Under the pieces are notes generated by a model that had not been told where the DNA came from, ran no database searches, and saw only the letters and a list, made by a program, of their open reading frames with translations. A stretch of 53,928 nucleotides of DNA, taken from positions 1-53,928 of the IMG/VR virus record IMGVR_UViG_3300045996_002424, one strand, 5' to 3'. Positions 6,376-36,272 of this stretch are shown piece after piece. The position numbers and the translations under genes are program-made. How positions within the stretch are numbered: the first letter of the stretch is position 1; each line of letters opens with the position of its first letter. This stretch comes from a virus (taxonomy: Duplodnaviria; Caudoviricetes).

Positions 6376-6575
6376 CACTGCTCCTGGCAGGTGTGGGGGA
6401 GGGCGGCGGCGTAGCCGGCCATGGCTTTGTGGGGGGCGTGTTCGTGGGTGTGTTCGAGGTGGCCGGTGAGGCGGAACTGCAGGGCGGTCTGGTTGTTGAT
6501 GAGTAGCCAGTGGCGCAGCGCTTCGCAGGCGTGACAAATGGGGACAACGGTGAGGTCTTGAGTGGTTGCGGGCAT
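6375..6575 (-). CDS. Hypothetical protein
   Basis: MPATTQDL...; CHAC; RBS AAGGA. Confidence 0.5.
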   Translation of the reverse strand: MPATTQDLTVVPICHACEALRHWLLINNQTALQFRLTGHLEHTHEHAPHKAMAGYAAALPHTCQEQ

Positions 6576-15693: not shown

Positions 15694-16482
15694 ATGAGTT
15701 TGCGGTTGGACGTGCTGAACAACAAGGGTGGGGTCGGCAAGTCGACGATCACCCTTGTCCTGGCCGAGGCGGCAGCCCGGATGGGCAAGCAGGCCTTGGT
15801 GGTCGACATGGACCCGCAGGCGAACGCGACGCGGCGTCTGGGAGTGCGGTCGACGAAGACGCTGACGACGTGCCTGCAGATGGGAGTGCAGCAGGGCGAG
15901 GCGTCCAACTACATCCACGGCCACCGGTGGGCTGGGTTCGAGCACCTCGCGATCGACGTGCTGCCCGCCAACCTGGACCTGGAGGATCGGGCGTTGGAGG
16001 CGGGGCAGCCGGGTGCCCACTACCGGCTGCGGCGGGCGCTGTTCGGCGTCGACGACCGCTACGACCTGACGATCATCGACTGCCCGCCCACCCTGAAGGG
16101 GCACCTGACGACGCTGTCGCTCGCGGCGCTGGACGGCCCCGGTGATGTGGTGCTGGTGCCGCTGGAGCCCGAGTACGACGCTGTGGCGTCGGCCCGCCGC
16201 ACCGTCGACTACGTCCAGCAGTGGCGTGACGACCTGGGTGTGCCGAACGCGCGGGTGGCGGGGGTGATCGTGAACCGTGTCCGTGGCACGAACCTGCATG
16301 GGATCCGGGAGGCGCAGTTCGTGGACACGCTGCCGGATGCGTTGCTGCGGGTGCCGTTGCGGGCGCGGATCGCGGAGCTGCAGGACGCTGGCCGGCCGCT
16401 GTCGAGCGACCCGAGCATGAAGGACATCCTCGAACAGTTCGAGGGCCTGGTGAAGATGTTGCTGAAGGAGGAGAAGGCGTGA
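15694..16482 (+). CDS. parA: ParA-family partition ATPase
   Basis: Deviant Walker A NNKGGVGKST, VDMDPQAN, IIDCPP. Confidence 0.92.
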   Translation: MSLRLDVLNNKGGVGKSTITLVLAEAAARMGKQALVVDMDPQANATRRLGVRSTKTLTTCLQMGVQQGEASNYIHGHRWAGFEHLAIDVLPANLDLEDRALEAGQPGAHYRLRRALFGVDDRYDLTIIDCPPTLKGHLTTLSLAALDGPGDVVLVPLEPEYDAVASARRTVDYVQQWRDDLGVPNARVAGVIVNRVRGTNLHGIREAQFVDTLPDALLRVPLRARIAELQDAGRPLSSDPSMKDILEQFEGLVKMLLKEEKA

Positions 16483-17684: not shown

Positions 17685-18136
17685 TGTGATCGAGCGGGTC
17701 GCGACGGGGGTGCGGTACGTCAAGCGGCGGGGGGTGTACGACGTGCACGAGCTGCTCGACGCGGTGGGTGACTCGGTGATCGGCCGGACGTACCGGGCGC
17801 GGTGCGGGCGGGTGCTGCTCGGTCAGCTCGGTGCGGTGTTGACCACGAAGGAGGTGACGTGTTCGCAGTGTTTGAGGTGAGGGTTTTCGGGGGGTGGCCG
17901 GCGCCCTCCCGGAACACCCCCCGGAACCGGCCACCCCCCGATGTCTCCCTGCAGCGAAGGTTCGCCGCCCAGTGAACCCCCTCGACTGGGCGGGTACCGC
18001 GCGGGGAGAGGGAAAGTATGCATCATGCCGTGGAGGGGGGTGGCGTGTGGGGTGGTGGCGTTCACCACAATCAATAATCTACACTGCGCGGCACTGCACA
18101 TGAGTGCCAGACTCTAAGCTGGAAGGACGGTGCACC

Positions 18137-24160: not shown

Positions 24161-25450
24161 TCAGTAGGAAACCGGGTAGACGCCGACCTGACCCAGCTCG
24201 GGGTGGCCGACGGTGAAGAACGAGTAGGCGTGGGCGCTCTCCAGCACGAACGCGGTGTCCCACCGCTCGCCGTCTGAGGCCATCCGTACGCCGCGGATGA
24301 AGCAGTCCTGCTGGATCGGGTCACCACCGCCGGCTGGGCGCCGCAGAATCGTGATGCGGTCGCCGAACTCACGGCCCAGCAGCGTCGGCCACATGACGTC
24401 GTCCATGTCCGGTGACGGCCGCAGGAAAGAGATCTCAGCGAACCGGCGATCCGGGTGCCGGTGGCGGTACAGCACCGCCTCGGCGTGGCTGAGCGCCTCG
24501 ACGTCGGTCATCTGCAGCAGGTCGGTGCGCTCGAAGGTGCGTTCCATGTACCGGGCGATGCTGTCGGTGTCGGTGGCCTGCTGCGGGGTGCCACCAACCC
24601 GAGTGATCGTCACACTGTTGACGAGCCCGTCGACGAGGCTCGACATCTTCGTGTCCGCGTACGGCAATTCACCGGTGGCGTCGTACCCGCCGTCGCCAAA
24701 CGTTGCTTGCGAAGTGGTCGAGCGGGGATCGGTCAGCATCGACAGCCGATCCCGGAACGTGGCCTTGCCGTCAGGGTTGATGAAGAACTCACCGAGCTCG
24801 GTGTCCTGAACCAGCTGCAGCTCCGACATGCCGTTGCCGGACAGCTCCGTGCCCTGCAACGTCATGGCGCCGGTGTCGATCTGCCGGTCGGCGGTGGGCC
24901 AGCCCAGCGAGGTGAGGATCCGACCTATCCGGGCGCCGCTGTACTCCCCGGACCCGGCGATGAGGCTGGGCAGGGGCCGGTCCTTGTCGAGCAGCTTCGA
25001 ACCGTCGGTGGCGGTGACGGTCACGTACGTCCAGAACGACCCCTGGTAGTCGGGTGACCAGTCGTCGACGTAGCCGTAGAACAGCGGGTACACGGTGCCG
25101 TTCCACTCGGCGAGGATCCGCAGCCGGCGTTCCGGTTCGACCTCGGTGATTCCAGCGGTGACGTACGGCCCGGACAGGTTCTCCGGGTCGAAGTCACGGT
25201 TCGGGTCGTGCAGCACCACCGTGGCGGTACCGGGTTCGTAGCGGCGGGTCGGCTGGTCGCCGGAGTTGACGCCGCGCCGGAACGACCAGGACTGCACCAC
25301 GGTGGCGTTGTCGAGGCGGACCCAGATAGCGTCCGGGCCGATCTCGGCGATGCCGACCTTGCCGCGTTCGGGGTCGCCGACGACGAAGATGTCGTCGGCG
25401 ACCAGCGTGCTGGTGAAGCCGATCTCGATGCGGATGTCGGGCAGGGTCAC
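24161..25450 (-). CDS. Minor tail / baseplate hub protein
   Basis: Follows the tape measure gene; SFRRG...PGTATVVLHDPNRDFDP. Confidence 0.75.
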   Translation of the reverse strand: MTLPDIRIEIGFTSTLVADDIFVVGDPERGKVGIAEIGPDAIWVRLDNATVVQSWSFRRGVNSGDQPTRRYEPGTATVVLHDPNRDFDPENLSGPYVTAGITEVEPERRLRILAEWNGTVYPLFYGYVDDWSPDYQGSFWTYVTVTATDGSKLLDKDRPLPSLIAGSGEYSGARIGRILTSLGWPTADRQIDTGAMTLQGTELSGNGMSELQLVQDTELGEFFINPDGKATFRDRLSMLTDPRSTTSQATFGDGGYDATGELPYADTKMSSLVDGLVNSVTITRVGGTPQQATDTDSIARYMERTFERTDLLQMTDVEALSHAEAVLYRHRHPDRRFAEISFLRPSPDMDDVMWPTLLGREFGDRITILRRPAGGGDPIQQDCFIRGVRMASDGERWDTAFVLESAHAYSFFTVGHPELGQVGVYPVSY

Positions 25451-28170
25451 GGCAGGACCGGCTTTCCGTGGACGACCATGCGACCTCCGCGTTCGAAGTA
25501 GGCCGACAGGTGCGCCACGACCTGCCGGCCGACCTCGGCGGGGTGGGCGCCGGCGGCGACGGTGATGGGCATGTTGATGGTCACCGACCCGGCGCCACCA
25601 CCGGCGGCGGTCTGAGCGGCGGACAGGACCCGTTCGGGGCCGCGTTCGGCGAACGAGTAGGTGGCCCCCGACGCCCCCACTCCGAGGACCGGTTCGCGGA
25701 TGATTCCACCGTTTTGCATGGCAATGTGAATATGGTTGCGGTGCGCTTCCATAAGGGCGTTGTTGAACGAGCCCTTGTTCTGGCCGCGGGTGTACGCGTA
25801 ATCGCGGGAATTGGTGCGGTGGATCAGTTCCAGCGGGCGCTTGTTCGCCAGGAACGACGCCAGCCGGTCCTGGCCGTACCCCATCCAGTCCACCGCACGG
25901 CCCGATCCGTGCCATTTGGGGTCACCTGGGCGATATGCGTTGCCGAACGACCCGGACATCGGGCCGGTCGACTGGATCAGGGCGACGATCTTGCGCCACA
26001 CCCCGGAGTCACCGCGCTGCGCAGACGGCGACGACGGCCAGTCCCCGAACTTCGGGATGACCCGTGACAGCGCCCATTCCTTCGACGGCACCCACGACTT
26101 GCGCAGGTTCGTGTGCATGGGGATGCCGCGCCGTGTCTCGACCGGCATGACGTGGCCACCGACGGCATAGCCGGCAGGGACCTGACCGGTGGCGTTCATC
26201 TCTTCGAGCAGCCCCGGGTGCTGCTTCTCGATCTGCTGCCGGGACTGCTTGCGGATGACGTACTCGTCGGCGTGGACCACACCGGCCGGCTGCATCTTCG
26301 GGCCCGGTCCGGTCCAACCACCGGCGTGCCAGGTCAGCGACCGCATCGCGGCCTTGCCCTCGTTGCGGACCGCGGCGATGGTCTTGCCTTCGGCCAGGGC
26401 CCGCTGCGAGACGTACAACGCCTGCAGCTTGTCGGCGATCGTGGCGAGGCCGTCGAGCAGCACCTTGGTGTGCTTGTCCGGCGGGATCTTGCCGTAGGTC
26501 TTGATCAGGTCCTGGGTGGTCTTGTTGTTGCCGAAGGTGCGGGTGGTTTCCTTCTCGATCGCCTTGGTGCGCTTCTCGTGCTGCTTGCGGGCCTCGTCGA
26601 TCGACATGCCGTTGGCGACGTTCGCGAAGTACGACTCGTTGTTCGCGAGCAGCAGTTCTTCCAGGGCGTCGCGGTTGGCCCGACCCTTGGTGGTGTTGAT
26701 GTCGAGGCTGGTGCCGTTGTCCTTGACCGACTTCGACAGGGCGTCCCACGACTTGGCGTACGCCTCGTTGGCCTCTGAGGCGCTGACGGCAACCCCGATG
26801 GTGTTCTGCCAAACCTGCTTGAGGCCGGCCGACAGCTGGGTGGTGCGGGCCAGCGCCGGGTTGATGTTCTCGATGGACGCCTTGTAGTCGTCCTGGGAGG
26901 CCTTCAACGCGTCTTGGGCGGCCTTGAGGGACGCCTCGTTCTGTTCGAGGAGCTTGGCGCTGATCGCCATCTTGGTCATGCCGTCGGCGGCGGTGAACGT
27001 CCCGAGGGCGTACCGGCGCACCGCCCCGGTGGCCGGGTCGATGACCTGGGTCGTCTTCTGGATCGAGGTGTTGAAGTCGTCGGCGGCGTTCTTCGCGAGC
27101 TTGGCGTTGAGCTCCAGCCGGATGTACTCCAGCTGCGCGTCCCGGCCGAACGCCCCGAACTTGACGAGGAACCCGTACGCCTCGGTGAGCCCGTTGATGA
27201 TGATGCCGATGGACGCGAGGGTGGCTTCCAGGAGGCTGAACGCCTGCCGCAGCGCGACCGCAGCTTCGATGCCGTTGTCGGACAGGCGGCTGAAGATGTC
27301 CTTGATGGTGCGGCCGATACCGGCCAGGCCCTGCGCGATCGCCTCGACTGCGGGACCGGCGGCGGCGATGCCGATACGGAGCCCTTCGACGATCTGCCGC
27401 ACCATTTCGGCCAGGCCCTTGGCGAGGGGTTGGACGAACTTGGTGGAGTCGCCGAGGAGCCCTTCGAGGTCCATCCTGTTGATGGCCTGCTCGAACACGC
27501 CGAGGGCGACGATGGCCTGGCCGACGAACTTCTCGGTGACGCCGGACAGGCGGGTCTCGATGCGCATGCCGAGGGCGTTGACGGCCCCTTTGACGCGGTC
27601 GTCGCGGGCGGCCAGAGCCAGACCACCGGCGACACCGCCGATACCGGCGCCGCCGATGATCGCCCCGGACACCATCGCCCCGAGCAGCGGCAGCATGTAG
27701 GCGACGCCGCCGAGGATGGTGCTGCCGAGGGGGATAGCGACGTTGCGGGCGATGCTCATGAATCCGATGTGGAACCGTCGGCCGGCTTCCAGCCCGGCCT
27801 TTTCCGCTTCGCCGGGGGGCAGCAGCTTACGGACGGTGGTGAGTTCCTTGAGTCGTTTCTGCTGTTCCTTGATCTGCTCGACGACGGTGGTGTTGCCTTC
27901 TGCGTACGCGGTGGACAGGCCTTGCAGGTTTCGGCGGACCACGGAGATCTGCCGGTCCATCTCGGCGATGTTGGCGCGCATCATTGCGGAGTTGCGGGCG
28001 ATGTCAGCGCTGGTCTTGCGGGCGTTGGCGCCCATGTTGCGGAAGGTGCCGGTGGCCTTCTCGGCGGTGTCCTTGAGGTGGCGTACGGCGTCGGCGCCGG
28101 AGCGGAACGCCCGCTTGAACTGGTCGATGTCGGCGATGAGCCGTACGCCGGTGGTACGCACCCCGGGCAC
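25447..28170 (-). CDS. Tape measure protein with C-terminal Zn-peptidase-like muralytic domain
   Basis: 907 aa, Ala-rich and helical; GGWTGPG...GVVHADEYV; WHGSGRAVD...HRNHIH. Confidence 0.85.
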   Translation of the reverse strand: MPGVRTTGVRLIADIDQFKRAFRSGADAVRHLKDTAEKATGTFRNMGANARKTSADIARNSAMMRANIAEMDRQISVVRRNLQGLSTAYAEGNTTVVEQIKEQQKRLKELTTVRKLLPPGEAEKAGLEAGRRFHIGFMSIARNVAIPLGSTILGGVAYMLPLLGAMVSGAIIGGAGIGGVAGGLALAARDDRVKGAVNALGMRIETRLSGVTEKFVGQAIVALGVFEQAINRMDLEGLLGDSTKFVQPLAKGLAEMVRQIVEGLRIGIAAAGPAVEAIAQGLAGIGRTIKDIFSRLSDNGIEAAVALRQAFSLLEATLASIGIIINGLTEAYGFLVKFGAFGRDAQLEYIRLELNAKLAKNAADDFNTSIQKTTQVIDPATGAVRRYALGTFTAADGMTKMAISAKLLEQNEASLKAAQDALKASQDDYKASIENINPALARTTQLSAGLKQVWQNTIGVAVSASEANEAYAKSWDALSKSVKDNGTSLDINTTKGRANRDALEELLLANNESYFANVANGMSIDEARKQHEKRTKAIEKETTRTFGNNKTTQDLIKTYGKIPPDKHTKVLLDGLATIADKLQALYVSQRALAEGKTIAAVRNEGKAAMRSLTWHAGGWTGPGPKMQPAGVVHADEYVIRKQSRQQIEKQHPGLLEEMNATGQVPAGYAVGGHVMPVETRRGIPMHTNLRKSWVPSKEWALSRVIPKFGDWPSSPSAQRGDSGVWRKIVALIQSTGPMSGSFGNAYRPGDPKWHGSGRAVDWMGYGQDRLASFLANKRPLELIHRTNSRDYAYTRGQNKGSFNNALMEAHRNHIHIAMQNGGIIREPVLGVGASGATYSFAERGPERVLSAAQTAAGGGAGSVTINMPITVAAGAHPAEVGRQVVAHLSAYFERGGRMVVHGKPVLP

Positions 28171-28248
28171 CCCCGATTTTTCTCAAGCTGGACGGATTGA
28201 CCTCGGCACTGTGCGAGGGCGAGACTGGGGCCCGTGGGAAGGCCGCCG

Positions 28249-28407
28249 GTGAAAACGGCAGACGAGCAGGACGTCGTCACGAGGTGGCGGCGGATGCTGT
28301 GCTGGACGAGGCGCGCCGGGGCCACCTCACGGGTCAAGCGGAGGATCCGCCGGCGGGAGCGGCACACCGCGAAGACCGAGCTACGCCAGGGAGGGGACAG
28401 CTCATGA
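28249..28407 (+). CDS. Small basic protein
   Basis: VKTADEQDVVTRWRRMLCW...KRRIRRRER (translated by hand); ATGA overlap with the next gene. Confidence 0.5.
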   Translation: MKTADEQDVVTRWRRMLCWTRRAGATSRVKRRIRRRERHTAKTELRQGGDSS

Positions 28408-28949
28408 CCACAACCAGCACGGTGACGATGCGGGAAACGCTCACCTTGTCGCGTGAGGACATGCTGAGTGCGTGGCTGGTGTACAACGAGGCCTTCGCGG
28501 AATTGGAGACCCTGTCCGCCACCCGGCATCTGTTCAACTGGCCAGAGTTCGAGTGGTGCGCGAAAGACCACCGCATCCTCAAATACATGCCCACCAACGC
28601 CGACCGGCGGGTGGTGGGAATCGGTGCCCTGACCAACTACCTGGATGCGTGGCCGACGATCTCGGCGCCGTTCTTCAAGCGGCACTGGCCGCAGCTGTAT
28701 GAGGAGCACCGGATCTGGTACGTCGGGTTCGTCGCTGCCGCGAAGCGCAGCGGTGTGTTCCCGGATTTTCTGCGGGCAATGACGAACGGCCGCAAGAACG
28801 ATCTGTTCATCATGGATTTCTGCGCGTACAACGAGCTGGAGCGGCACATGCCGGAAGTGTCAAAAGCTGTTCTGCTGCGGAACAACCCGCATGTGCAGAT
28901 GCACCGTTTCGATCAGCAGTCGTGGTGGGCGGTGGCATTCCATGCCTAA
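28404..28949 (+). CDS. Hypothetical protein, possibly GNAT-like fold
   Basis: VVGIGALTN...IWYVGFVAA beta pattern; RBS GGAGG. Confidence 0.55.
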   Translation: MTTTSTVTMRETLTLSREDMLSAWLVYNEAFAELETLSATRHLFNWPEFEWCAKDHRILKYMPTNADRRVVGIGALTNYLDAWPTISAPFFKRHWPQLYEEHRIWYVGFVAAAKRSGVFPDFLRAMTNGRKNDLFIMDFCAYNELERHMPEVSKAVLLRNNPHVQMHRFDQQSWWAVAFHA

Positions 28950-29355
28950 CGCGCTGAACAAGGCCATGCAGTGGATCCGGGGGTTGTTCCGGAACCGGGA
29001 CGAGGACTACGGCTACGAGCTGCAGCTCGATCTGTACGGCTGCGACATGAGGTTCGTCAACGACGCCGAGCGGCTGCGGCGATTCGTTGAGGAGCTCGTC
29101 AGGCGAATCGACATGGTGGCGTTCGGCGAGTTCGTGTGCCCGCACTTCGGGCACACCTCACCGAAAACATCCGGGTACTCGTTCCAGCAGTGGATCGAGA
29201 CCAGCATGATCTCCGGCCACGTCCGCGAGGCCAACGGGACCCTGTACCTGAATGTGTTCAGCTGCAAGGAATTCGACCCGAAGGTCGTGATCCGGTTCTC
29301 CTACCAGTACTTCAACGCGAAACACCACCGGGCGCGCATGCGTGTCCGGCACTGA
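28942..29355 (+). CDS. speD: S-adenosylmethionine decarboxylase proenzyme (pyruvoyl-dependent)
   Basis: GYELQLDLYGCD...SGYS...IETSMISGH...LYLNVFSCKEFD. Confidence 0.85.
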   Translation: MPNALNKAMQWIRGLFRNRDEDYGYELQLDLYGCDMRFVNDAERLRRFVEELVRRIDMVAFGEFVCPHFGHTSPKTSGYSFQQWIETSMISGHVREANGTLYLNVFSCKEFDPKVVIRFSYQYFNAKHHRARMRVRH

Positions 29356-29541
29356 GGGAGGCCCGTGCACGTCGGACAGCGCTGCGCGTTCTGCATCAGG
29401 CTGGACGCGATCTACCGGCAGGACCTGCCGGTAGATCAACAGAACGCCGCGATCGACGCCCTGTTCGACCTTGCGGACCGGGCGCGGCGTGCCCGCCGGG
29501 TGTCCGGCCGGCGGCGGAAGCGGCGGAACTACTGAGAAGGA

Positions 29542-29754
29542 GTGAGCGTGTCCACCGAGGCGCAGTCGTCGACATCGTCGACAGACGACCCCGTCGACGA
29601 CATGCACCACATGTACTGCTGTGACCAGGAGAAGTCGCTGTGCGGCACCGACCTCAGCGGGGCGCCGGACCTTGGGCACGTGGCCTGGGACCGGCTGTGC
29701 CCGATGTGTGAGGTGCTATCCCGGCTTCCGTGCGCGTGGTGCGGTGACATCTGA
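29542..29754 (+). CDS. Cys-rich small protein
   Basis: HMYCC...LCG...CPMC...CAWC. Confidence 0.55.
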   Translation: MSVSTEAQSSTSSTDDPVDDMHHMYCCDQEKSLCGTDLSGAPDLGHVAWDRLCPMCEVLSRLPCAWCGDI

Positions 29755-29966
29755 TGGACCCCGCGGGCGAGCAAGATCCCGAGGATGTCCGCGACCGGGC
29801 CCTGATCTTCGTGTACACCGTGAGCAGCACGTTCTGTCTCGTCGTCGCAGCGCACGCAGCGGTGTTCGACCTCACCGCCCGATTCGCCGTGTTCGCCGTG
29901 CTGGCGATGGTGATCAGCGGGGCCGGGCTGATCCGCTTCGTGAAGATGCTCACCCGAAAACGGTGA
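29754..29966 (+). CDS. Two-TM membrane protein
   Basis: Hydrophobic stretches. Confidence 0.55.
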   Translation: MDPAGEQDPEDVRDRALIFVYTVSSTFCLVVAAHAAVFDLTARFAVFAVLAMVISGAGLIRFVKMLTRKR

Positions 29967-30202
29967 ACGTGCGAAACGTCGACACCGAGGACTACACTGA
30001 GAGGAGCCCGGCATTGGGAGCGAGGTCGTACACCCGCTACTCCCGCATCACCCCAGGCATGGTCGCAGTGATGAAAACCCTGTACGAACAGGGCTGGTCG
30101 CTGCGCGCCATCGCCGAAGAAATGAACGTGTCCTACGGATCGACCTACAACCACCTCCGGAAAGTCGTGACCCTGCGCCCCCGAGGAGGCATCCGCAAGT
30201 GA
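29963..30202 (+). CDS. Actinomycete-type small HTH protein
   Basis: LYEQGWSLRAIAEEMNVSYGSTYNHL...LRPRGG. Confidence 0.75.
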   Translation: MNVRNVDTEDYTERSPALGARSYTRYSRITPGMVAVMKTLYEQGWSLRAIAEEMNVSYGSTYNHLRKVVTLRPRGGIRK

Positions 30203-30372
30203 CCGTCTGGCTGATCGTCAGCGCCTACATCCTGATCGTCGTCCTCGCCGTCGTCTACGTCGTGAAGGCGTTCCTCCAGGAACGACTCTCGGAATGGACG
30301 GCGCTGAAAATGCTCGGCGTACTGATCTTCCTCGGACTCGTCGCTGCCGCCGGCGTCGGCGCCGCATCATGA
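30199..30372 (+). CDS. Two-TM small membrane protein
   Basis: VTVWLIVSAYILIVVLAVV... (translated by hand). Confidence 0.55.
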   Translation: MTVWLIVSAYILIVVLAVVYVVKAFLQERLSEWTALKMLGVLIFLGLVAAAGVGAAS

Positions 30373-30400
30373 GCTACCTCGACTACTGCGCCGGTCGACC

Positions 30401-30568
30401 ATGAAGCGGCACCTGCCGCGCGGCCGATGGACCCGCGAACTGCTCGACTCGCTGCCGTGGCGGGAGCTGGCAGAGATCAGCCGCTACCGGTACCGCGGCA
30501 CCAAGAAGTGGGCCAAGCGGCGCATCCACAAGATGGAGCGCCAGCAGGCCAAACGAGACCAGGCGTAA
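30401..30568 (+). CDS. Small basic protein; stop codon lies in dif-like site 1
   Basis: MKRHLPRGRWTRELL...AKRDQA*, 55 aa (translated by hand). Confidence 0.55.
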   Translation: MKRHLPRGRWTRELLDSLPWRELAEISRYRYRGTKKWAKRRIHKMERQQAKRDQA

Positions 30569-30595
30569 GACTCATTATCGACTAGGGAGGGCAGA

Positions 30596-30892
30596 ATGCA
30601 CGATCAGCTTGGTGGAGAACTCTTCGACCCAGAGACCTCTCCGCTTCTGAAGGGCAAGCCGATAAGCGGGTATGTCGAGGTAATCGACCGCGAAGAGCTG
30701 GTGGCGCTCCGAACCCGTCTGTTCGACGCCGAGGCGGCACTGGCCGAGTTGGTGCGACTCCGCGACGACCCCCACCACTGGGCGGACCCGGCGGCATGGT
30801 CTCGCGCTCGCGCGGTACTGGAGCAGATCCCGTGCGGCGACGCCCCAGCACCATGCAACTGCGATGACCCGGTCCTCCATCGGGGTCATTAA
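30596..30892 (+). CDS. Cassette ORF 1, hypothetical
   Basis: Between sites 1 and 2; RBS GGGAGG. Confidence 0.6.
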   Translation: MHDQLGGELFDPETSPLLKGKPISGYVEVIDREELVALRTRLFDAEAALAELVRLRDDPHHWADPAAWSRARAVLEQIPCGDAPAPCNCDDPVLHRGH

Positions 30893-30930
30893 CCTGACAT
30901 AAGAACAGCTATCGATCATATAGGGGCAGA

Positions 30931-31335
30931 ATGGACTACCACGCCGACGGCACCAAATACGACTCCCGCTGCAATTGCGACGAGGTGTGCGATGTCAGCC
31001 TGAGGGCCGCCGACGCGCAGATCCGCGAAGCCGCCGCCAAGGACCCCGCCTACGCGCAAGTGCTGATCGAGATTTTCGAGGAGGACGCGTTCGCCGTCGA
31101 GGCCATGCGGGACGAGTCCAGCAGGATCGCGCGCCAGAGCTGGAACATCCTCGGCGAGGACGGCCACCACGAGTACCTGTCGACGGGCTGCCTGCACGGA
31201 GAACACGAGTACTGCAAGAGCATGACGGGGCTGGCGGGGGCGAAGCGGCCTGCGGAGTGCAAGTTCTGCAAGGCGCCGTGTATCTGCGGGTGCCACAAGG
31301 ACACGTCCGTCATCGAGGGCGGCATTGCAACCTGA
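30931..31335 (+). CDS. Cassette ORF 2, Cys/His-rich
   Basis: CNCDEVC; CLHGEHEYC; CKFC...CICGCH; stop in site 3. Confidence 0.65.
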   Translation: MDYHADGTKYDSRCNCDEVCDVSLRAADAQIREAAAKDPAYAQVLIEIFEEDAFAVEAMRDESSRIARQSWNILGEDGHHEYLSTGCLHGEHEYCKSMTGLAGAKRPAECKFCKAPCICGCHKDTSVIEGGIAT

Positions 31336-31358
31336 CATAACAACAGAGGAAGAACCCC

Positions 31359-31655
31359 ATGATTGAAACCGTTTTGGTGGACAGCCGCGGCGCCCGGTGG
31401 ATGCGTACTCAGGAGTACCAGGAGGACCGGCCCGGCGAGTACGGATTCCTGACCCTCGCATCCGACAGGGGTGAAAAGGAAATCTACGAATGGGTCGTGG
31501 AACGCTTCGGGTTCCGCGACGACCGACTCGACGGCAAGCCGTATCTCATCGGATTCCTGTCCGACGAAGCTACCGAGGAACTGGCCGCCATGGACGACGA
31601 GGAGCGCGCCCTGCGTAACGCCGTCCGTGTCCGCCGCGACCGCAACCTGACATAA
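31359..31655 (+). CDS. Cassette ORF 3, acidic hypothetical
   Basis: Stop TAA is the end of the site 4 arm. Confidence 0.65.
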   Translation: MIETVLVDSRGARWMRTQEYQEDRPGEYGFLTLASDRGEKEIYEWVVERFGFRDDRLDGKPYLIGFLSDEATEELAAMDDEERALRNAVRVRRDRNLT

Positions 31656-31657
31656 CA

Positions 31658-31858
31658 ATGGTTATCGATCACGAGCATCCGTGCCCGTCGACGGCCTGTC
31701 GCGACGATCTTCGGCGCCAGGGTTACGACCTGCCGGATGACATGGAATGTTGCATCTGCTGGAAGCAGCAACACGCCCCCGAGCTGTTGGTGGGGCCGCT
31801 CCCGCCGCCCTACCCGCCCGCGCCAGACATAGCGAAGGTTATCGATAATGAAGATTGA
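31658..31858 (+). CDS. Cassette ORF 4, Cys-rich (start in the site 4 spacer)
   Basis: CPSTAC...CCICW; reads through site 5. Confidence 0.45.
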   Translation: MVIDHEHPCPSTACRDDLRRQGYDLPDDMECCICWKQQHAPELLVGPLPPPYPPAPDIAKVIDNED

Positions 31859-32156
31859 GCCGGGTGAGATCCGGGTGGCTGGCGCCGACATGATGCTCGA
31901 CCGGCCCCGCATGAAGGTCTGGCACCTCGACCTCGACTCGAAGTACGCCGAGATCCTCTCGTACTCCACCAGCGAGGTTCTGCTTGCAGCTGGCGACCGC
32001 ACACTGCGGACCGACGAAGAATTCAAAGGTCAGCCGACCGCAGTCATAATCGACCTACCCGACGATTGGCACGTTATCGCGGAATGCGCACGGTATACGT
32101 GCCGCATCGTTGCCTACCAATACGACAAACGCATGAAGCAAATCACTCTGACATAA
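31848..32156 (+). CDS. Cassette ORF 5, hypothetical
   Basis: Start in the site 5 arm; stop TAA is the end of the site 6 arm. Confidence 0.6.
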   Translation: MKIEPGEIRVAGADMMLDRPRMKVWHLDLDSKYAEILSYSTSEVLLAAGDRTLRTDEEFKGQPTAVIIDLPDDWHVIAECARYTCRIVAYQYDKRMKQITLT

Positions 32157-32190
32157 CGTCAAGTATCGACCAGGAAGGAGGATCCCCGAC

Positions 32191-32499
32191 GTGGCGTTAA
32201 TCGACCTCACGGAGCTGTCCGATTCCGATCTCGCAGGAATGATGGATGGGGAGGTTCCCTGTGAACTCAAAGAAGCATTCGTAGGAGCCGCCGCGAGGTG
32301 GCTGCCAGGAAAATGTCAAGAGGTCGCCACTCACGCGATGAAGTTGACATGCAGCTCATGTGGCAAGGGCGGCACGGTACGCACCTGCCTGCGTTGCGCG
32401 AGACTTGTTCGCTGGGGTCTCAGGTTGCACGTACTTGAAATCAAAACGGAGCCCCACAGCTGTCGGCCACCCATCAGGTGGCGCATCAACCTGGCATAG
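32191..32499 (+). CDS. Cassette ORF 6, Cys-rich
   Basis: CSSC...CLRC; stop TAG is the end of the site 7 arm; RBS AAGGAGG. Confidence 0.6.
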   Translation: MALIDLTELSDSDLAGMMDGEVPCELKEAFVGAAARWLPGKCQEVATHAMKLTCSSCGKGGTVRTCLRCARLVRWGLRLHVLEIKTEPHSCRPPIRWRINLA

Positions 32500-32640
32500 C
32501 GGAGGTTATCGACCATGTCGGGCGAAGCGATGCAGAAGCCAAAGGTCGGCGACGTCGTGTGTGACTGCCGCATGGTCCACTCGCAGGTAATCACCGTAGC
32601 CAATGGCGGCAGAACCGGTGACCGATCACAGGAGGCATGC

Positions 32641-32991
32641 ATGAGCTACGCCCGGTGGGGCTGGAACTCCTCAGACGTCTACATCTACGGCGGCACGTCG
32701 ACCGGCGGCAACGTGCTGGTCTGCTGCGGCTGCGACGACGGCGACTGCCCCACGTACGGCGACATGCTCCGGCACATCAGCAAACACCGGGCCGCCGGGC
32801 AGCACGTGCCGGCCTACGTCGACGAACGCCTCCAGGCCGAAATCGCCGACCCGGCACAACAATGGGTCGAGGTCGGCGAGCTTCCCGAGACCATGCACCC
32901 CGACCCGGGACCGCAACGGCCCGAGCCGCCGCAGTTCACCCAGCTGCGGGAAATGGTCGAGAAGGCGTGGGCCGACGAGGACCGCGGATAG
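32641..32991 (+). CDS. Phage hypothetical protein with Zn-finger-like motif
   Basis: MSYARWG...SDVY...CCGC...HISKH; RBS AGGAGG. Confidence 0.65.
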   Translation: MSYARWGWNSSDVYIYGGTSTGGNVLVCCGCDDGDCPTYGDMLRHISKHRAAGQHVPAYVDERLQAEIADPAQQWVEVGELPETMHPDPGPQRPEPPQFTQLREMVEKAWADEDRG

Positions 32992-33020
32992 CTCGAACCA
33001 CCCCGACCAGAGAGGACACC

Positions 33021-33281
33021 ATGGCCGCACACCGGCGGTGGGCCGACGTACGCGACGAGGCCGGCCTTGAGGCAGCCCGCTGCCAGCGGTGCGGCGGCCT
33101 GATCAGCGACGTCGACCTCGTCAGCACGGAATGCCGAGCGGGCTACTGCACCATCGTCGCCTGCGCCTGCGGCGAGGAGATCGGGTCGTTCGGGCCGGTA
33201 GGCTGCCCGTCCTGCACACCGTGGCGGTCGGCGCGCCTGCGCAAGATCCGGCAGGCGTACGCCCGCCGGCGGCGGCGGTGA
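33021..33281 (+). CDS. Cys-rich hypothetical protein
   Basis: CQRC...CAC...CPSC. Confidence 0.55.
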   Translation: MAAHRRWADVRDEAGLEAARCQRCGGLISDVDLVSTECRAGYCTIVACACGEEIGSFGPVGCPSCTPWRSARLRKIRQAYARRRRR

Positions 33282-33548
33282 ACGACGCTAGGGAGAACAC
33301 GGTGACTCTTCGCCCGGTAAGAGACTCGCTCGCGACGGCGATCGGCCAGCTGATCGGCGACCCGTTCCTGATCGCCGGCCATCCGCTGACATGCAACGGC
33401 GGGAATCCCGACGTACGCACCCACCATGATCACGAGGTACGGATGATGCTCAGTTCTGCAACTGGTGCCCCGTGCCCACCGCCCCCAACCCGCGGGCGCA
33501 CCCGGACGGCAAGGCGCTCCACCGCGAACCGTCCTGAGAGGAGGCCAG

Positions 33549-33995
33549 GTGACAGTCCGTGACGACAAGCCCGAGAAGCTGCGCATCGACCACGTCGAGC
33601 GTGGCCCCCTCCCGTGGCGGGAGGTTGAGCTGACCGAGTGTGGCCTGCCGATCGCTGGCCATCCGGTCATCACGCGCGATGCCTACGTGGCGCGGCGGCG
33701 TCAATGGGGCCGCGAGCGGACCCTGTTCACGGTGTGCCGTACGTGCGCCAATACCGCCGCGAACTACAAGCCGTGGGATGAAGATCCCGTCTCCATCATC
33801 AAGAGGGAGGCCGAGCGGTGCGGCTGGTTCCCGCATCCCGATGACCTTGGGCGGGACCTGTTCACCCGCGAGCTCCGCGCCCTCGCCGCACTCGTGGAGG
33901 CGCACCGCGAGGAATTCCTGGGCTATGTCGAAGGGCTCACAGAAACGGTGTCACTGGACGCGGCCCGCAAGGCGCGGAAACGCCAAGCGAAATAG
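33549..33995 (+). CDS. Hypothetical protein
   Basis: HVER...TECG...CRTC; RBS GGAGG. Confidence 0.6.
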   Translation: MTVRDDKPEKLRIDHVERGPLPWREVELTECGLPIAGHPVITRDAYVARRRQWGRERTLFTVCRTCANTAANYKPWDEDPVSIIKREAERCGWFPHPDDLGRDLFTRELRALAALVEAHREEFLGYVEGLTETVSLDAARKARKRQAK

Positions 33996-34010
33996 AAAAA
34001 GGGGAAACGG

Positions 34011-34268
34011 TTGCTGTATCGCAATTTGCGGTTGGTCATTGCCATCATCTTGATCGTGCCAGTTTTAGCGGCGCTGCTTCAGGTCATGCCGATGAACTGC
34101 CCGACCACCTTGAGTGCAATGTTCAGCGCTGACCAATGCGACCAGACGTCGCAGATCGGTGTCTTTTTCCTTGGCCTTGCCTCTGGTCTCATCGCGTTCC
34201 TGATCGGCCACGGCATCGAAGGCCTGGTGCACAGACACCGCAATCGGAAGGATTCCGAGAATGAATGA
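34011..34268 (+). CDS. Two-TM membrane protein
   Basis: Two TM helices flanking a Cys-containing loop. Confidence 0.55.
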   Translation: MLYRNLRLVIAIILIVPVLAALLQVMPMNCPTTLSAMFSADQCDQTSQIGVFFLGLASGLIAFLIGHGIEGLVHRHRNRKDSENE

Positions 34269-34280
34269 GCGAGGCGCGCA

Positions 34281-34865
34281 GTGAAACGCCTGGTTCTCCC
34301 AGGGCTGGGGTGCCCGCCGCGAATCTACGGCAAAGACACTGTGGTGGTGTACAACCCCGACCTGACCCTGGTCGGCAACGCGGCCTGGATCGCTCAGTCA
34401 CTGTCCGAGCGGACCTTGCTGATCGGGCACTCGATGGGCGGGATCATTGCGTCGTTGGTGGGCGGCAACCACCCCGTACTGAACATCGAAGGGTTGCCGA
34501 CCCGGCCGTCAAAGGGGACGCTGCAGCTCGGTGCAGGGGTCGAGCCCAGCGCAGCGAGCATGTTGTGGCGCAGCCTGCTGGCTGAGTGCAATCCGGCGGC
34601 CACGTCAACGCTGGCCGGCCACTACGAGCGGTGGCTGCACAACAACTCCGCCGCGACCCTGTGGCGGCACGTCAAGGCCCCGAAGCTGTACGTATACGGC
34701 GAGGAATCCACTGCCGATCGGGTCCATCTGCAGGTCGGAGTCGGCGACCGGATCGGGATCCCCGGTGCCAGCCACTTCCCGATGGTCGACCGGCCGGATG
34801 CGCTGTCGGCGATCATCCACGCCTTCGAACAATGCTTAGAAATTCCTCGGCGTGCACGACTCTGA
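34281..34865 (+). CDS. Minimal alpha/beta-hydrolase
   Basis: PGLG oxyanion loop, GHSMGG nucleophile elbow, PGASHFPMVDRP catalytic His. Confidence 0.8.
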   Translation: MKRLVLPGLGCPPRIYGKDTVVVYNPDLTLVGNAAWIAQSLSERTLLIGHSMGGIIASLVGGNHPVLNIEGLPTRPSKGTLQLGAGVEPSAASMLWRSLLAECNPAATSTLAGHYERWLHNNSAATLWRHVKAPKLYVYGEESTADRVHLQVGVGDRIGIPGASHFPMVDRPDALSAIIHAFEQCLEIPRRARL

Positions 34866-35112
34866 TCTCCCTGGGAGGAGTGGTCGTTGATCTACGCGTT
34901 GTTCATCGCGGCGGTCGCCGGCTGGCAGGTGTACACCGTCACCGATCAGGGTGAACCTGTTCTGGTCTGGGTGCCGCCCGAGGTGTTGCCGCTGGTCGCG
35001 ACCGTTGTGGCGGTGTGGTTCCTGTGGCGGCAGGAATCCTGGTGGCACAACTAGTGTCGACGGTATAGAGTTCGGCACTGCTAAGCCGAAGCAGGGAAGA
35101 AGGACCAGGCCA

Positions 35113-35850
35113 GTGACACGCCTCAGCCAGATCATCGCGATCGAGAAGGACAACAAGACCCGCGCCGAACAGGTCGCGTTCGCCGCCTACAAGCTGCTGG
35201 AAAAGCCCGAGCCACTGGCGGGCATCAGCCGGGCCTACACGCCCCGCGACGCCGAGGGCGAGCAGCTGCCGACGCAGACCACGCGGGTACAGACCACGGT
35301 CGCCGAGACACTGCGCGACATCAGCGTGTTCACCGGCCGGTACCTGGACCTGGTCGGCACCAAGGAGCGCACCGACCAGGACGCCCGCGCCGACGTGGTC
35401 GTCGATGGCGAGGTGTTCATCCCCGACGCACCGGTGACGTTCCTGCTCGCGCTGGAGCGGCAGCTCAACGAGGAGATGGTGCAGGCGAAGAAGCTGCCCA
35501 CCCTCAGCCCCGAGTTCGAGTGGGCTCCGTACGACGGCAACGGCACCTACGTGACCACACCGATCACCACCGTGCGGTCCAAGAAGGTACCCCGTAACCA
35601 CGTCAAGGCGCCGGCCACCGACAAGCACCCGGCGCAGGTCGAGGTGTACTTCGAGGACACCGCCGTCGGTGACTGGGTCACCAAGCACTTCTCCGGCGCC
35701 CTCCCGGCCTCGGTCAAGCAGCAGATCATCAACCGCATCACCAAGCTGCTCGAAGCGGTCAAGCAGGCCCGCGAGGAAGCGAACACCACCACCGTCACCG
35801 ACTACAAGTACGGCAACAAGGTGTTCGGCTACATCTACGGCCAGAGCTAA
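35113..35850 (+). CDS. Conserved uncharacterised 245-aa protein (recalled as DUF7873-like; verify)
   Basis: RLSQIIAIEK...ARADVVVDG...PVTFLLALERQL...APATDKHPAQV...FSGALP...AVKQAREEAN. Confidence 0.8.
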   Translation: MTRLSQIIAIEKDNKTRAEQVAFAAYKLLEKPEPLAGISRAYTPRDAEGEQLPTQTTRVQTTVAETLRDISVFTGRYLDLVGTKERTDQDARADVVVDGEVFIPDAPVTFLLALERQLNEEMVQAKKLPTLSPEFEWAPYDGNGTYVTTPITTVRSKKVPRNHVKAPATDKHPAQVEVYFEDTAVGDWVTKHFSGALPASVKQQIINRITKLLEAVKQAREEANTTTVTDYKYGNKVFGYIYGQS

Positions 35851-36272
35851 AATCCCAGATGTCCTGCCGGTCGTAACTCGGCAGGAAAAGGGCGCAGGCG
35901 GCTCTGACGAGGGTCGCCCGCGTTCAAGGGGGTGTCGGGCTCACAGCACCCCGGCACCTCCACGCAACACAGCAGCAGCACGAGAAGCAACACCAGTAGG
36001 CGGCAGCTGTGCCGCACCAGTATCAGCTAGATGTTGCAGCAGGGAGCACAACGCCAAGCGTCGCATCTTGAAGTGATGGCTGATTGCAGGGGTCCCAGGT
36101 TCAAGTCCTGGTCCCACCTCCAAACGTGGTGGGGTAGCTCAGTTAGGCAGAGCACTGCGTCGCAGCAAGACCGTCACGTGTGGCGGCGTACCGGATGGGC
36201 GTACAACAAAACCATTGGTCTGAGATACCAATTTGGTGAAGACCCCCCAGGGCAGGGTAGTCCTGGGGGGTC
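35851..36272 (+). ncRNA. Candidate structured ncRNA with circularly permuted tRNA-like (YrlA-like) domain
   Basis: T arm, acceptor 3' strand with CCA, linker, acceptor 5' strand and D arm at 36085-36159; further hairpins; terminal hairpin 36241-36272. Confidence 0.75.

What the first reader, a model, noticed from the sequence alone, without database searches (positions are those of the whole stretch)
30558..32516. Integron-like gene-cassette array built from Xer/dif-like recombination sites
Seen in sequence: seven same-orientation sites with 11-6-11 spacing. They are ACCAGGCGTAA-GACTCA-TTATCGACTAG (30558), ACCTGACATAA-GAACAG-CTATCGATCAT (30892), ACCTGACATAA-CAACAG-(no right arm) (31330), ACCTGACATAA-CAATGG-TTATCGATCAC (31645), GCCAGACATAG-CGAAGG-TTATCGATAAT (31822), CTCTGACATAA-CGTCAA-GTATCGACCAG (32146) and ACCTGGCATAG-CGGAGG-TTATCGACCAT (32489). 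Each interval (177-438 bp) holds one small plus-strand ORF. Five ORFs stop inside the left arm (30568, 31335, 31655, 32156, 32499) and a sixth stops at its first base (30892). All seven 6-bp spacers differ. Established: the reverse complement (e.g. GTGATCGATAA-CCATTG-TTATGTCAGGT) has the layout of E. coli dif (GGTGCGCATAA-TGTATA-TTATGTTAAAT) and resembles the mycobacterial dif as I recall it (..CCGATAA-N6-TTATGTCAAGT). Acinetobacter pdif modules are plasmid-borne and usually alternate in orientation. Inference: a phage-borne cassette system that uses host XerC/D to capture, stack or shuffle single small genes, since no tyrosine recombinase is encoded here. Unequal spacers would limit accidental deletion.
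Basis: partly seen in the sequence, partly recalled or inferred. Interest (0 to 1): 0.92.

Follow-up and report, generated by a model that had tools for sequence, protein, structure and literature searches.

The report
Phage gene cassettes between dif-like sites
A soil actinobacterial phage separates its small accessory genes with copies of its host group's chromosome-resolution site (dif), and a near-identical phage from another soil carries different DNA between two of those sites, so host Xer enzymes probably swap single genes there.

Summary
Six full 11-6-11 sites and one half site lie on the + strand at seven consecutive gene junctions (30558-32516); 0.17 are expected by chance. They are real dif mimics. 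The reverse complement of site 4 matches CGATAA-N6-TTATGTCAGGT exactly. That pattern occurs once each in at least 120 genome records, and 73 of the 80 titled ones are Actinomycetota. It also fits the published predicted Frankia dif (PMC3025954). The complete 53.9-kb phage encodes no tyrosine or serine recombinase, rve transposase, protelomerase or XafT. It does encode ParA. New evidence: in soil run X2 an otherwise identical phage has cassettes C+D (30904-31644) replaced. Identity ends one base after the XerD-type arm of site 2 and resumes at the first base of site 4, and the foreign DNA starts with its own spacer, XerC-type arm, SD and GTG. Same-orientation arrays with unrelated genes occur in other high-GC metagenome contigs. 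Xer binding, catalysis and free cassette circles are not shown. Best reading (0.55): Xer-dependent single-gene cassettes. The scan noted similar arrays before on other DNA (e1-6191731, e1-6224482, e1-6313358). My paper searches found no description.

The parts
30401..30568 (+). ORF A (55 aa); its stop TAA is the last 3 nt of the left arm of site 1
   Evidence: GC3 0.89; no Pfam or PHROG hit
30558..30585 (+). Site 1: ACCAGGCGTAA-GACTCA-TTATCGACTAG, the most degenerate XerD-type arm; followed by GGAGGG and ATG
   Evidence: (3 mismatches)
30596..30892 (+). Cassette ORF B (98 aa); its stop ends on the first base of site 2
   Evidence: GC3 0.72; present in run X2 up to 30903
30892..30919 (+). Site 2: ACCTGACATAA-GAACAG-CTATCGATCAT; left border of the replacement seen in run X2 (identity ends at 30903)
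   Evidence: (0 mismatches)
30931..31335 (+). Cassette ORF C (134 aa) with a conserved Cys/His domain; its stop TGA lies inside the half site
   Evidence: 12 homologues, domain HEYLSTGCLH...CKFCKAPC; GC3 0.90; no cover in run X2 over 31042-31509
31330..31346 (+). Site 3, a half site: ACCTGACATAA-CAACAG, then the RBS AGGAAG directly; there is no XerC-type arm
31359..31655 (+). Cassette ORF D (98 aa); ends N-L-T-stop inside the left arm of site 4
   Evidence: no homologue but itself in 5.8 billion proteins; replaced together with C in run X2
31645..31672 (+). Site 4: ACCTGACATAA-CAATGG-TTATCGATCAC. Its reverse complement matches CGATAA-N6-TTATGTCAGGT exactly. It is the right border of the X2 replacement (identity resumes at 31645)
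31658..31858 (+). Cassette ORF E (66 aa); its ATG lies in the spacer of site 4; it reads through site 5 and overlaps the start of F
   Evidence: GC3 0.72
31822..31849 (+). Site 5: GCCAGACATAG-CGAAGG-TTATCGATAAT; its spacer doubles as the SD (GAAGG) for the ATG at 31848
   Evidence: (2 mismatches)
31848..32156 (+). Cassette ORF F (102 aa); ends T-L-T-stop in the left arm of site 6
   Evidence: GC 0.58, GC3 0.74
32146..32173 (+). Site 6: CTCTGACATAA-CGTCAA-GTATCGACCAG, followed by GAAGGAGG and GTG
   Evidence: (0 mismatches)
32191..32499 (+). Cassette ORF G (102 aa, Cys-rich); ends N-L-A-stop in the left arm of site 7
   Evidence: GC 0.58, GC3 0.65, the lowest in the island
32489..32516 (+). Site 7: ACCTGGCATAG-CGGAGG-TTATCGACCAT; its spacer doubles as the SD (GGAGG) for the ATG at 32515
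   Evidence: (2 mismatches)
32515..32991 (+). ORF H (158 aa), the first gene after the last site; no site follows it
   Evidence: no relative found in viral contigs
30374..30401 (+). Possible eroded site upstream of ORF A (ACCTCGACTAC..CGGTCGACC before the ATG); a weak resemblance only
   Evidence: read by eye; below every scan threshold

Best explanation
The seven sites are mimics of the host group's 28-bp dif site. They read XerD-type arm, 6-bp centre, XerC-type arm on the coding strand. The phage has no recombinase of its own, so host XerC/XerD most likely bind the sites and use them as crossover points. Each unit looks like a single-gene cassette: its own 6-bp centre, a XerC-type arm, an RBS, an ORF and a XerD-type arm that supplies the stop codon. 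The cassettes sit in one co-oriented operon without junction promoters. The phage has ParA, so it may persist as a plasmid prophage. Recombination between a site here and a compatible site on another co-resident phage or plasmid molecule would then replace, add or remove whole cassettes. This could run through a cointegrate followed by resolution at a second site, or through a one-strand exchange completed by replication. Because the centres within one array differ, sites in the array should not recombine with each other, which protects it from deletion. Shown: the sites, their identity to dif, the lack of a phage recombinase, and one natural cassette replacement bordered by two sites. Inferred: Xer binding and catalysis, and the route of exchange.
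For: (1) The array is not chance: 6 sites against 0.17 expected, all on one strand, at 7 consecutive junctions.
(2) The sites are dif-like. CGATAA-N6-TTATGTCAGGT, which site 4 matches exactly, occurs in at least 120 genome records, once in 119 of the 120 fetched loci, and 73 of the 80 titled records are Actinomycetota. In a sample of 401 Actinomycetes genomes, 72 have a near match, almost always single. The published predicted Frankia dif is CACGCCGATAA-TGCACA-TTATGTCAAGT (PMC3025954).
(3) The XerD-type arm is 11/11 identical to that consensus in sites 2, 3 and 4. The fifth innermost base pair of both arms is invariant: 7/7 in the XerD-type arms and 6/6 in the XerC-type arms. PMC9226527 (section 22 read) reports this position as critical for XerD. 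Strong XerD arms with looser XerC arms are, as I recall, also typical of plasmid Xer sites such as cer and psi.
(4) Six-frame searches of a record rated 100% complete find no PF00589, PF00239, PF00665, PF16684 or PF12375 at E<=1.
(5) There is natural variation. Run X2, from a different study than the best holder X1, has contigs with no listed differences between 30466 and 33796 on either side of the array. It has zero depth over 31042-31509. One contig leaves the window at 30903 and runs on for 143 unlike letters that begin with a new spacer, a XerC-type arm, GGAGG and GTG. Another contig has 184 unlike letters that join the window exactly at 31645.
(6) Same-orientation arrays with the same stop/site/SD/start layout occur in other high-GC metagenome contigs: L223 (7 right arms, 5 with left arms, endolysin nearby), L208 (2 sites) and L240 (2 sites). 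They share no gene with the window or with each other. The X2 spacer also occurs at a site in L223.
(7) GC3 is uneven across cassettes B-G (0.72, 0.90, 0.78, 0.72, 0.74, 0.65) against 0.83-0.89 for the flanking genes 30199-30372, A and H.
(8) In mycobacteria, direct repeats of dif excise by XerCD anywhere in the chromosome, and centre variants recombine only with themselves (10.1101/758037). In Acinetobacter dif modules, excision needs direct orientation and near-identical spacers (PMC13141974, passages).
Against: No binding or cleavage data exist.
- None of the 7 centres carries the ACA/TGT end that 82 of 121 chromosomal sites have.
- All XerC-type arms read TCGATAA, where 111 of 121 scanned chromosomal sites have CCGATAA. 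A native T-type dif exists in 7 of 401 sampled genomes, but with a TTGACATAA XerD arm. No sampled genome has the phage's exact arm combination. G382, the genome with the closest capsid relative, has the C type.
- Only one replacement event was seen. It comes from Logan contigs, its full insert was not visible, and the centre of site 2 differs between the two variants.
- Because every gene boundary in this stretch carries a site, ordinary mosaic breakpoints at gene boundaries would also fall on sites.
- The only cassette with homologues (C) gave 76 IMG/VR loci, and 0 of 76 have dif-like sites within 4 kb. No cassette was seen in two different arrays.
- One array-bearing contig (L208) encodes its own tyrosine integrase.
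- IMG/VR scans found no second array.
Confidence: 0.55

Rival explanations
1. The conserved junctions act as short homology 'linker' sequences. General or phage-encoded homologous recombination swaps genes at the 11-28 bp of shared sequence. The likeness to dif is a relic, for example of one ancestral plasmid-prophage resolution site copied along with inserted genes, and Xer plays no part in the exchange.
For: In X2 the identical stretch at both borders is the 11-12 bp left arm, so the event is equally compatible with microhomology-guided exchange. The spacer of site 2 differs between the variants, which is not expected from a classical two-step Xer reaction within a shared centre. Half sites exist: window 31330, and two right-arm-only junctions in L223.
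Against: Unrelated contigs keep the dif-specific positions, the 6-bp spacing and the fixed orientation while sharing no genes. That is selection for a protein-recognised site, not for mere homology. Eleven base pairs is very short for homologous recombination. I looked for no phage recombinase of the RecT, Erf or Rad52 kind, so this point is untested.
Confidence: 0.15
2. The sites dock host Xer proteins without moving genes. They could be multimer-resolution sites for a ParA-maintained plasmid prophage. They could instead be XerD landing pads, as in SMC unloading at XerD-binding sites in Bacillus or Staphylococcus, or roadblocks or regulators within the operon.
For: The phage has ParA and no integrase. 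About 60 high-GC IMG/VR contigs carry one single T-type dif-like site, so single phage-borne sites are common. PMC9226527 (section 22) recounts XerD-only binding sites with a non-recombination role. An earlier scan note on a marine phage read its dif copies as docking sites (e1-5914001, unchecked).
Against: One site suffices for dimer resolution. Seven sites with seven different centres cannot resolve dimers better than one. The strict placement at stop/start junctions, the cassette-wise replacement in X2 and the uneven GC3 are not explained. No promoter-like site sits at any junction.
Confidence: 0.15
3. The motif works at the level of expression. It could be a start-associated sequence or translational operator read on the mRNA, like the SAS/ESAS motifs of cluster K mycobacteriophages (recalled, not checked here). 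It could also be the operator of a phage HTH protein.
For: The right arm lies 0-18 nt upstream of the start codon at 6 junctions. In sites 5 and 7 the spacer is itself the SD. In L223 the right arm plus SD is better conserved than the left arm. The phage encodes HTH proteins.
Against: The RNA folds of the six full junctions are no more stable than shuffles (z from -1.11 to +1.47). No Rfam family matches. A translational motif gives no reason for a 17-position identity with chromosomal dif, or for the conserved XerD-type arm inside the upstream ORF's last codons.
Confidence: 0.08
4. The repeats are leftovers of tandem duplication of one ancestral gene plus its junction, with no present function.
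For: Several products are small and Cys-rich. Sites 1 and 2 share GGGCAGAATG downstream.
Against: The cassette proteins show no mutual similarity in my reading, and no self-hits appear at the DNA or six-frame protein level in the island (one search lists only between-sequence hits, so this is weak). The same motif occurs in unrelated contigs. It matches host dif.
Confidence: 0.02

Closest known systems
dif modules bounded by pdif sites on Acinetobacter Rep_3 plasmids (XerC/XerD); PMC13141974 (passages read), PMC6449649 (abstract seen in a search listing)
   Same: Both have 28-bp XerC/XerD-type sites with variable 6-bp spacers that bound small accessory modules on an extrachromosomal replicon lacking its own recombinase. 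Modules differ between otherwise related replicons. Spacer identity gates recombination.
   Different: pdif sites alternate in orientation (C and D modules), so a single module cannot be excised. Here all sites are direct repeats and each unit is one promoterless gene in one operon. The host phylum differs (Actinomycetota against Gammaproteobacteria) and the carrier is a tailed phage. Experimental excision is shown for pdif and not here.
IMEX elements and their tandem arrays at chromosomal dif (CTXphi, TLCphi, VGJphi of Vibrio cholerae); PMC9226527 (abstract and section 22 read), others from search listings
   Same: Both are mobile DNA without an integrase that exploits host XerCD through dif-like sites deviating from dif. 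Serial insertion gives directly repeated dif-like sites between elements. Deviant arms or centres prevent unwanted excision.
   Different: IMEX are whole phages or satellites inserted in the chromosome at dif. Here the array lies inside a tailed phage genome, and the units are single genes of 0.2-0.4 kb. No XafT-like activator (PF12375) was found.
Integrons (IntI, attI, attC cassettes)
   Same: Both have co-oriented, promoterless, single-gene cassettes, each ending in a recombination site. Cassettes have varied composition and unknown functions.
   Different: No IntI or any tyrosine recombinase is present. The sites are short double-strand dif-type sites, not folded attC hairpins: the junction folds are not more stable than shuffles. 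No attI/Pc platform was identified.
Engineered dif variants for Xer-cise in mycobacteria (10.1101/758037, whole text read)
   Same: Directly repeated actinobacterial dif sites flank a gene. Sites with different central regions coexist stably because they do not cross-react.
   Different: That system is man-made and uses identical pairs that excise. The natural array has no identical pair within it.
Start-associated sequences (SAS/ESAS) of cluster K mycobacteriophages (recalled; only titles seen)
   Same: Both are a repeated motif placed just upstream of the start codons of small early genes in an actinophage.
   Different: The sequence differs, and no dif likeness is reported as far as I recall. 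Here half of the motif lies in the upstream ORF's end.

Membership tests
Xer recombination site of dif type | Two 11-bp arms around a 6-bp centre, with palindromic inner bases ATAA/TTAT | tested here: met
   Six of seven sites have the 11-6-11 layout; the seventh lacks one arm.
Xer recombination site of dif type | XerD arm matching that of the host group's chromosomal dif | tested here: met
   TTATGTCAGGT is 11/11 in sites 2, 3 and 4. It is the arm of single-copy sites in at least 120 records, mostly actinobacterial. The fifth innermost base pair is kept in 7/7.
Xer recombination site of dif type | XerC arm matching the host dif | tested here: inconclusive
   The inner CGATAA is exact in 4 of 6 sites and off by one in 2. 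The next base is T in 6/6, against C in 111 of 121 chromosomal sites. A T-type native dif occurs in 7 of 401 sampled genomes. The host is unknown.
Xer recombination site of dif type | Bound and cut by XerC/XerD | not testable with these tools
   This needs EMSA or a genetic assay.
Chromosomal dif proper | Single copy at the replication terminus of a chromosome | tested here: not met
   There are seven copies within 2 kb of a phage genome.
Acinetobacter-type dif modules | Modules bounded by Xer-type sites on a replicon without its own recombinase | tested here: met
Acinetobacter-type dif modules | Adjacent sites in inverse orientation (alternating C and D modules) | tested here: not met
   All sites are on the + strand: 6 forward, 0 reverse. 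The rule is taken from PMC13141974.
Acinetobacter-type dif modules | The same module found in different contexts, with borders at the sites | tested here: inconclusive
   One replacement has both borders at sites. No cassette was found in two arrays, and 0 of 76 loci with homologues of cassette C have sites.
Integron | IntI-type tyrosine recombinase next to the array | tested here: not met
   No PF00589 match at E<=1 in six frames of the whole record.
Integron | attC sites that fold as imperfect hairpins | tested here: not met
   The junctions fold no better than shuffles (RNA parameters). The palindrome is only 4-5 bp.
Integron | Co-oriented promoterless cassettes | tested here: met
   All ORFs are on the + strand. 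One promoter-like match in 6 kb, inside ORF F and not at a junction, against 0.8 expected.
IMEX | No own integrase; dif-like attachment site | tested here: met
IMEX | The element integrates into chromosomal dif | not tested
   The host is unknown. The record is a free, complete phage genome.

The most novel reading that the evidence does not exclude
Soil actinophages carry an integrase-less analogue of the integron. Single-gene cassettes are each framed by the two halves of a host dif mimic, and the host's own XerCD inserts, swaps or removes them between co-resident phage and plasmid genomes. The 6-bp centre acts as an address that travels with the downstream gene. This would be a dedicated site-specific mechanism for the gene-by-gene mosaicism of phage accessory regions.
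Probability: 0.4. Interest if true: 0.9.

Novelty: new variant of a known kind. Interest (0 to 1): 0.8.

Why it matters
How phages exchange single genes precisely at gene boundaries is an old open question, usually put as illegitimate recombination plus selection against dedicated boundary sequences. Here the boundary sequences are copies of a site for a known, universal host enzyme pair. That makes the question testable with simple tools: EMSA, excision assays in xerC/xerD mutants, and read mapping for junctions. If true, it extends Xer-driven module shuffling in three ways: from Acinetobacter plasmids to tailed phages, from Proteobacteria to Actinomycetota, and from alternating to directly repeated sites. 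It would also give a way to find rapidly exchanged phage accessory genes, which are candidate anti-defence or host-takeover genes, by their frames alone. The address-like centres are the same trick that engineers devised for stable multi-site Xer-cise.

Tried and rejected
Searches for relatives and further arrays:
- Close relatives in GenBank phages by DNA gave no match in near or distant mode. By protein, the terminase and primase reach only about 35% identity to actinophages.
- An IMG/VR scan for the site gave 79 loci, each with a single match. Re-scanning them with a matrix gave no array.
- An IMG/VR scan for the TTGACRTAA variant gave 113 loci and no array.
- Relatives found through the DUF7873 gene (L086, L087, 43-44% identity) have no sites.
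- Relatives through ORF H: none.
- Prophage relatives through the capsid (G382, G273) share only head genes and have no sites.
- The two X2 loose-end strings were not found in IMG/VR or in the fetched loci.

Function and structure:
- Pfam and PHROG scans of cassette proteins A-H gave nothing.
- The 647-aa HTH protein (18104-20047) was tested as a hidden recombinase. It has only HTH_Tnp_1-type N-terminal hits and no PDB relative.
- RNA-structure, Rfam, promoter and terminator readings of the junctions were negative.

From read laying:
- The parts of X3 and X4 without cover are low-depth gaps and are not used.
- The four 'letters between' joints of table 5c (X3, X4) have short sides at 85% likeness and do not fall on sites. 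I treat them as other organisms.
- Breaks between X1 contigs near sites 2 and 4-5 may be low coverage.

I did not try to name the G genomes. G382 shares its dif centre with records titled Nocardioides, which is at most a hint of host. Supplements of PMC3025954, which hold the dif lists, are closed and could hold the dif of the true host group.


Full report
WHAT THE WINDOW IS. The window is a whole IMG/VR virus record of 53,928 bp. It is rated 100% complete, has no end repeats and is 66.8% G+C. It is a tailed actinophage. It has a large terminase (52291-53892, -), portal (50443-51840, -), major head protein (47515-49035, -), tape measure (25447-28170, -) and primase/helicase (3548-6547, -). 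The best GenBank phage relatives reach only about 35% protein identity and infect Streptomyces, Microbacterium, Gordonia and the like. There is no DNA-level relative. The phage encodes ParA (15694-16482, PF13614 2e-29). Six-frame searches at E<=1 find no tyrosine recombinase, serine recombinase, rve transposase, protelomerase or XafT-like factor. The finding lies in a + strand block of small genes (28197-35850) set between the minus-strand tape measure gene and the remaining minus-strand virion genes, which resume near 36.8 kb.

With up to three mismatches the pattern finds six sites. All are on the + strand within 2 kb, against 0.17 expected, and no shuffle reaches six. Nothing else in the genome resembles them. 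The sites occupy seven consecutive junctions, A|B through G|H. The junctions before and after the array are tight overlaps without sites. Five upstream ORFs end inside the left arm and one ends on its first base. The right arm is followed by an SD and a start codon. In sites 5 and 7 the 6-bp centre is itself the SD, and in site 4 it contains the ATG of ORF E, which then reads through site 5. All seven centres differ.

THE SITES ARE dif MIMICS. Kono et al. print the predicted Frankia alni dif as CACGCCGATAA-TGCACA-TTATGTCAAGT (PMC3025954, passage). The reverse complement of site 4 is GTGATCGATAA-CCATTG-TTATGTCAGGT. I scanned one genome per prokaryote species for CGATAA-N6-TTATGTCAGGT. Of the 80 titled records, 73 are Actinomycetota, including Nocardioides, Williamsia, Rhodococcus, Microbacterium, Arthrobacter, Mycobacterium and Gordonia. 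In an even sample of 401 Actinomycetes genomes, 72 hold a site within one mismatch of CTGACATAA-N6-TTATCGA, nearly always a single copy. So the phage motif is the chromosome-dimer resolution site of this class.

HOW THE PHAGE SITES DIFFER FROM CHROMOSOMAL dif. Three differences are systematic.
- The base outside CGATAA is T in 6 of 6 phage sites, but C in 111 of 121 chromosomal sites.
- The outer XerC-arm bases differ.
- None of the seven centres ends in ACA, against 82 of 121 chromosomal sites.
A native T-type dif (ACTTGACATAA-TGTTCA-TTATCGAGCAA) does exist in 7 of the 401 sampled genomes, all 6.9-10.7 Mb. No sampled genome has the phage's exact arm pair. The XerD-type arm is the better kept arm: 11/11 in three sites, and the fifth innermost base pair is invariant. 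PMC9226527 (section 22) reports that position as decisive for XerD.

THE NEW EVIDENCE: A NATURAL CASSETTE REPLACEMENT. Six soil-metagenome runs from five studies hold parts of the stretch. I laid the Logan contigs of four of them on 28000-35000. X1, perhaps the source sample, matches throughout. X2 comes from another study and carries the same phage. It has contigs with 0-7 differences each, and none is listed between 30466 and 33796. It has no cover over 31042-31509 and shows two loose ends. One contig follows the window up to 30903, which is the left arm of site 2 plus one base. It then continues for 143 letters unlike the window, beginning with a different 6-bp centre, a canonical XerC-type arm (TTATCGACCAA), GGAGG and GTG. 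Another contig has 184 unlike letters that join the window exactly at 31645, the first base of the left arm of site 4. So cassettes C and D, together with the half site between them, are replaced by foreign DNA in X2. That DNA brings its own centre and right arm and ends in the shared left arm. Logan contigs are built from 31-mers (background knowledge, not from a call), and an 11-bp repeat cannot create such a join. The new centre is the same as that of one site in the unrelated contig L223. The caveat is that it is one event, and every gene boundary here carries a site.

THE SAME FRAME ELSEWHERE. A metagenome scan for ACCTGACATAA-N6-YTATCGA gave 35 loci. Most are single, low-GC chance hits. 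Three high-GC contigs carry several same-strand sites.
- L223 is a 40.6-kb contig with 9.7 kb held here. It has seven TTATCGRCC right arms, each followed by an SD and a start codon. Five have a left arm, and one left arm is tandemly duplicated.
- L208 has two sites.
- L240 has two sites.
L223 encodes an endolysin. L208 encodes a phage-type tyrosine integrase and a PHROG protein. None of these contigs shares a gene with the window or with each other at the DNA or six-frame protein level. In IMG/VR I found no other array. About 60 high-GC viral contigs do carry one single T-type dif-like site.

THE CASSETTES. A-H have no Pfam or PHROG family. D has no homologue but itself among 5.8 billion proteins. 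C carries a Cys/His domain shared with 12 proteins and with 76 IMG/VR loci, none of which has dif-like sites within 4 kb. The gene family is therefore common in actinophages and is only here framed as a cassette. GC3 varies from 0.65 to 0.90 among cassettes B-G, against 0.83-0.89 for the flanking genes 30199-30372, A and H. That fits mixed origins.

RIVAL READINGS. The junction RNAs are not structured (z from -1.11 to +1.47). No Rfam family matches, and no promoter or terminator sits at a junction. An expression motif does not explain a 17-position identity with dif. Multimer resolution of a ParA plasmid prophage is plausible for one site, but not for seven with different centres. Exchange by short homology at the shared left arm cannot be excluded from the X2 borders alone. 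Against it stands the conservation of dif-specific positions, spacing and orientation in contigs that share no genes.

HOW IT MOST LIKELY WORKS. In mycobacteria XerCD excises anything between two identical direct dif copies, and sites with different centres do not cross-react (10.1101/758037). In Acinetobacter dif modules, excision needs direct orientation and near-identical spacers. Single modules are thought to move by cointegrate formation at one site and resolution at another (PMC13141974). Applied here, the different centres keep the array stable in cis. A co-resident genome with a matching site can recombine in trans and exchange everything up to the next matching site. The X2 event suggests that the centre travels with the downstream gene. 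That would place the effective crossover at the border of the XerD-type arm. This is one event and an inference. Xer binding, Xer catalysis and circles are not shown.

COMPARISON AND NOVELTY. The closest known systems are the Acinetobacter pdif modules and the IMEX arrays at Vibrio dif. The pdif modules use the same enzyme logic but have alternating orientation, sit on plasmids and occur in Proteobacteria. The IMEX arrays have direct repeats and no integrase, but they are whole elements inserted in a chromosome. The array is not an integron: it has no IntI and no folded attC. Five paper searches, together, turned up no description of dif-type arrays between single genes of tailed phages. Earlier agents of this scan noted similar arrays in other actinophage-like genomes (e1-6191731, e1-6224482, e1-6313358). 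These notes are unchecked and not independent. I rate the finding a new variant of a known kind, with interest 0.8.

Noticed in passing
window 36073-36180 (+): Rfam YrlA (Y RNA-like) match of 39.4 bits. This is below the gathering score of 69, with E 5.5e-6.
   Followed up: partly
window 15694-16482 (+) and 28891-29355 (+): ParA-type ATPase (PF13614 2e-29) and an S-adenosylmethionine decarboxylase domain (PF02675 8.6e-17) in a phage without any recombinase. This suggests a plasmid-prophage life style.
   Followed up: partly
L320 2375 and 11906 (+); L319 718 and 3689 (-) (genome G003, record titled Gordonia jacobaea): Direct repeats of host-type dif (TTATCGG arm) lie 9.5 kb and 3 kb apart in a bacterial genome. 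They look like IMEX-like elements inserted at dif in an actinomycete.
   Followed up: partly
about 60 high-GC IMG/VR loci among L341-L453: Each carries one single T-type dif-like site (TTGACRTAA-N6-TTATCGA). A few centres recur in many contigs (GGTAAA, TAGAGT, TAGAAG). These may be Xer-dependent attachment or resolution sites of actinobacterial (pro)phages.
   Followed up: no
L057 3339 (-) and 4048 (+); also L037, L010: Viral contigs of one large sample carry two inverted dif-like sites 0.6-0.8 kb apart. In L057 the centres are identical. This is the geometry of an Acinetobacter-type dif module.
   Followed up: no
L207: A genome record has two inverted copies of CGATAA-N6-TTATGTCAGGT sharing the same 5 bases beyond the XerD arm.
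   Followed up: no
L334-L340 (genomes G244, G153, G276, G386, G007, G228, G371): A set of large (6.9-10.7 Mb) Actinomycetes genomes has a native dif with a T-type XerC arm. Four of them carry the identical sequence ACTTGACATAA-TGTTCA-TTATCGAGCAA.
   Followed up: partly
L223 (- strand), about 5073-5115 of the reversed locus: A 19-bp unit holding the XerD-type arm is tandemly duplicated just before a full site. It may be a scar of recombination or slippage.
   Followed up: no
window 30931-31335; alignment A1: A Cys/His-rich domain (HEYLSTGCLHGxHxYC...CKFCKAPCxCxCH, 21 invariant columns) of unknown function occurs in 76 IMG/VR loci of high-GC phages.
   Followed up: partly
L208 1771-2889 (+): A tyrosine integrase (phrog_1, 3.4e-35) lies 1.2 kb from the two dif-like sites of this contig. 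Not every array-bearing element lacks a recombinase.
   Followed up: no
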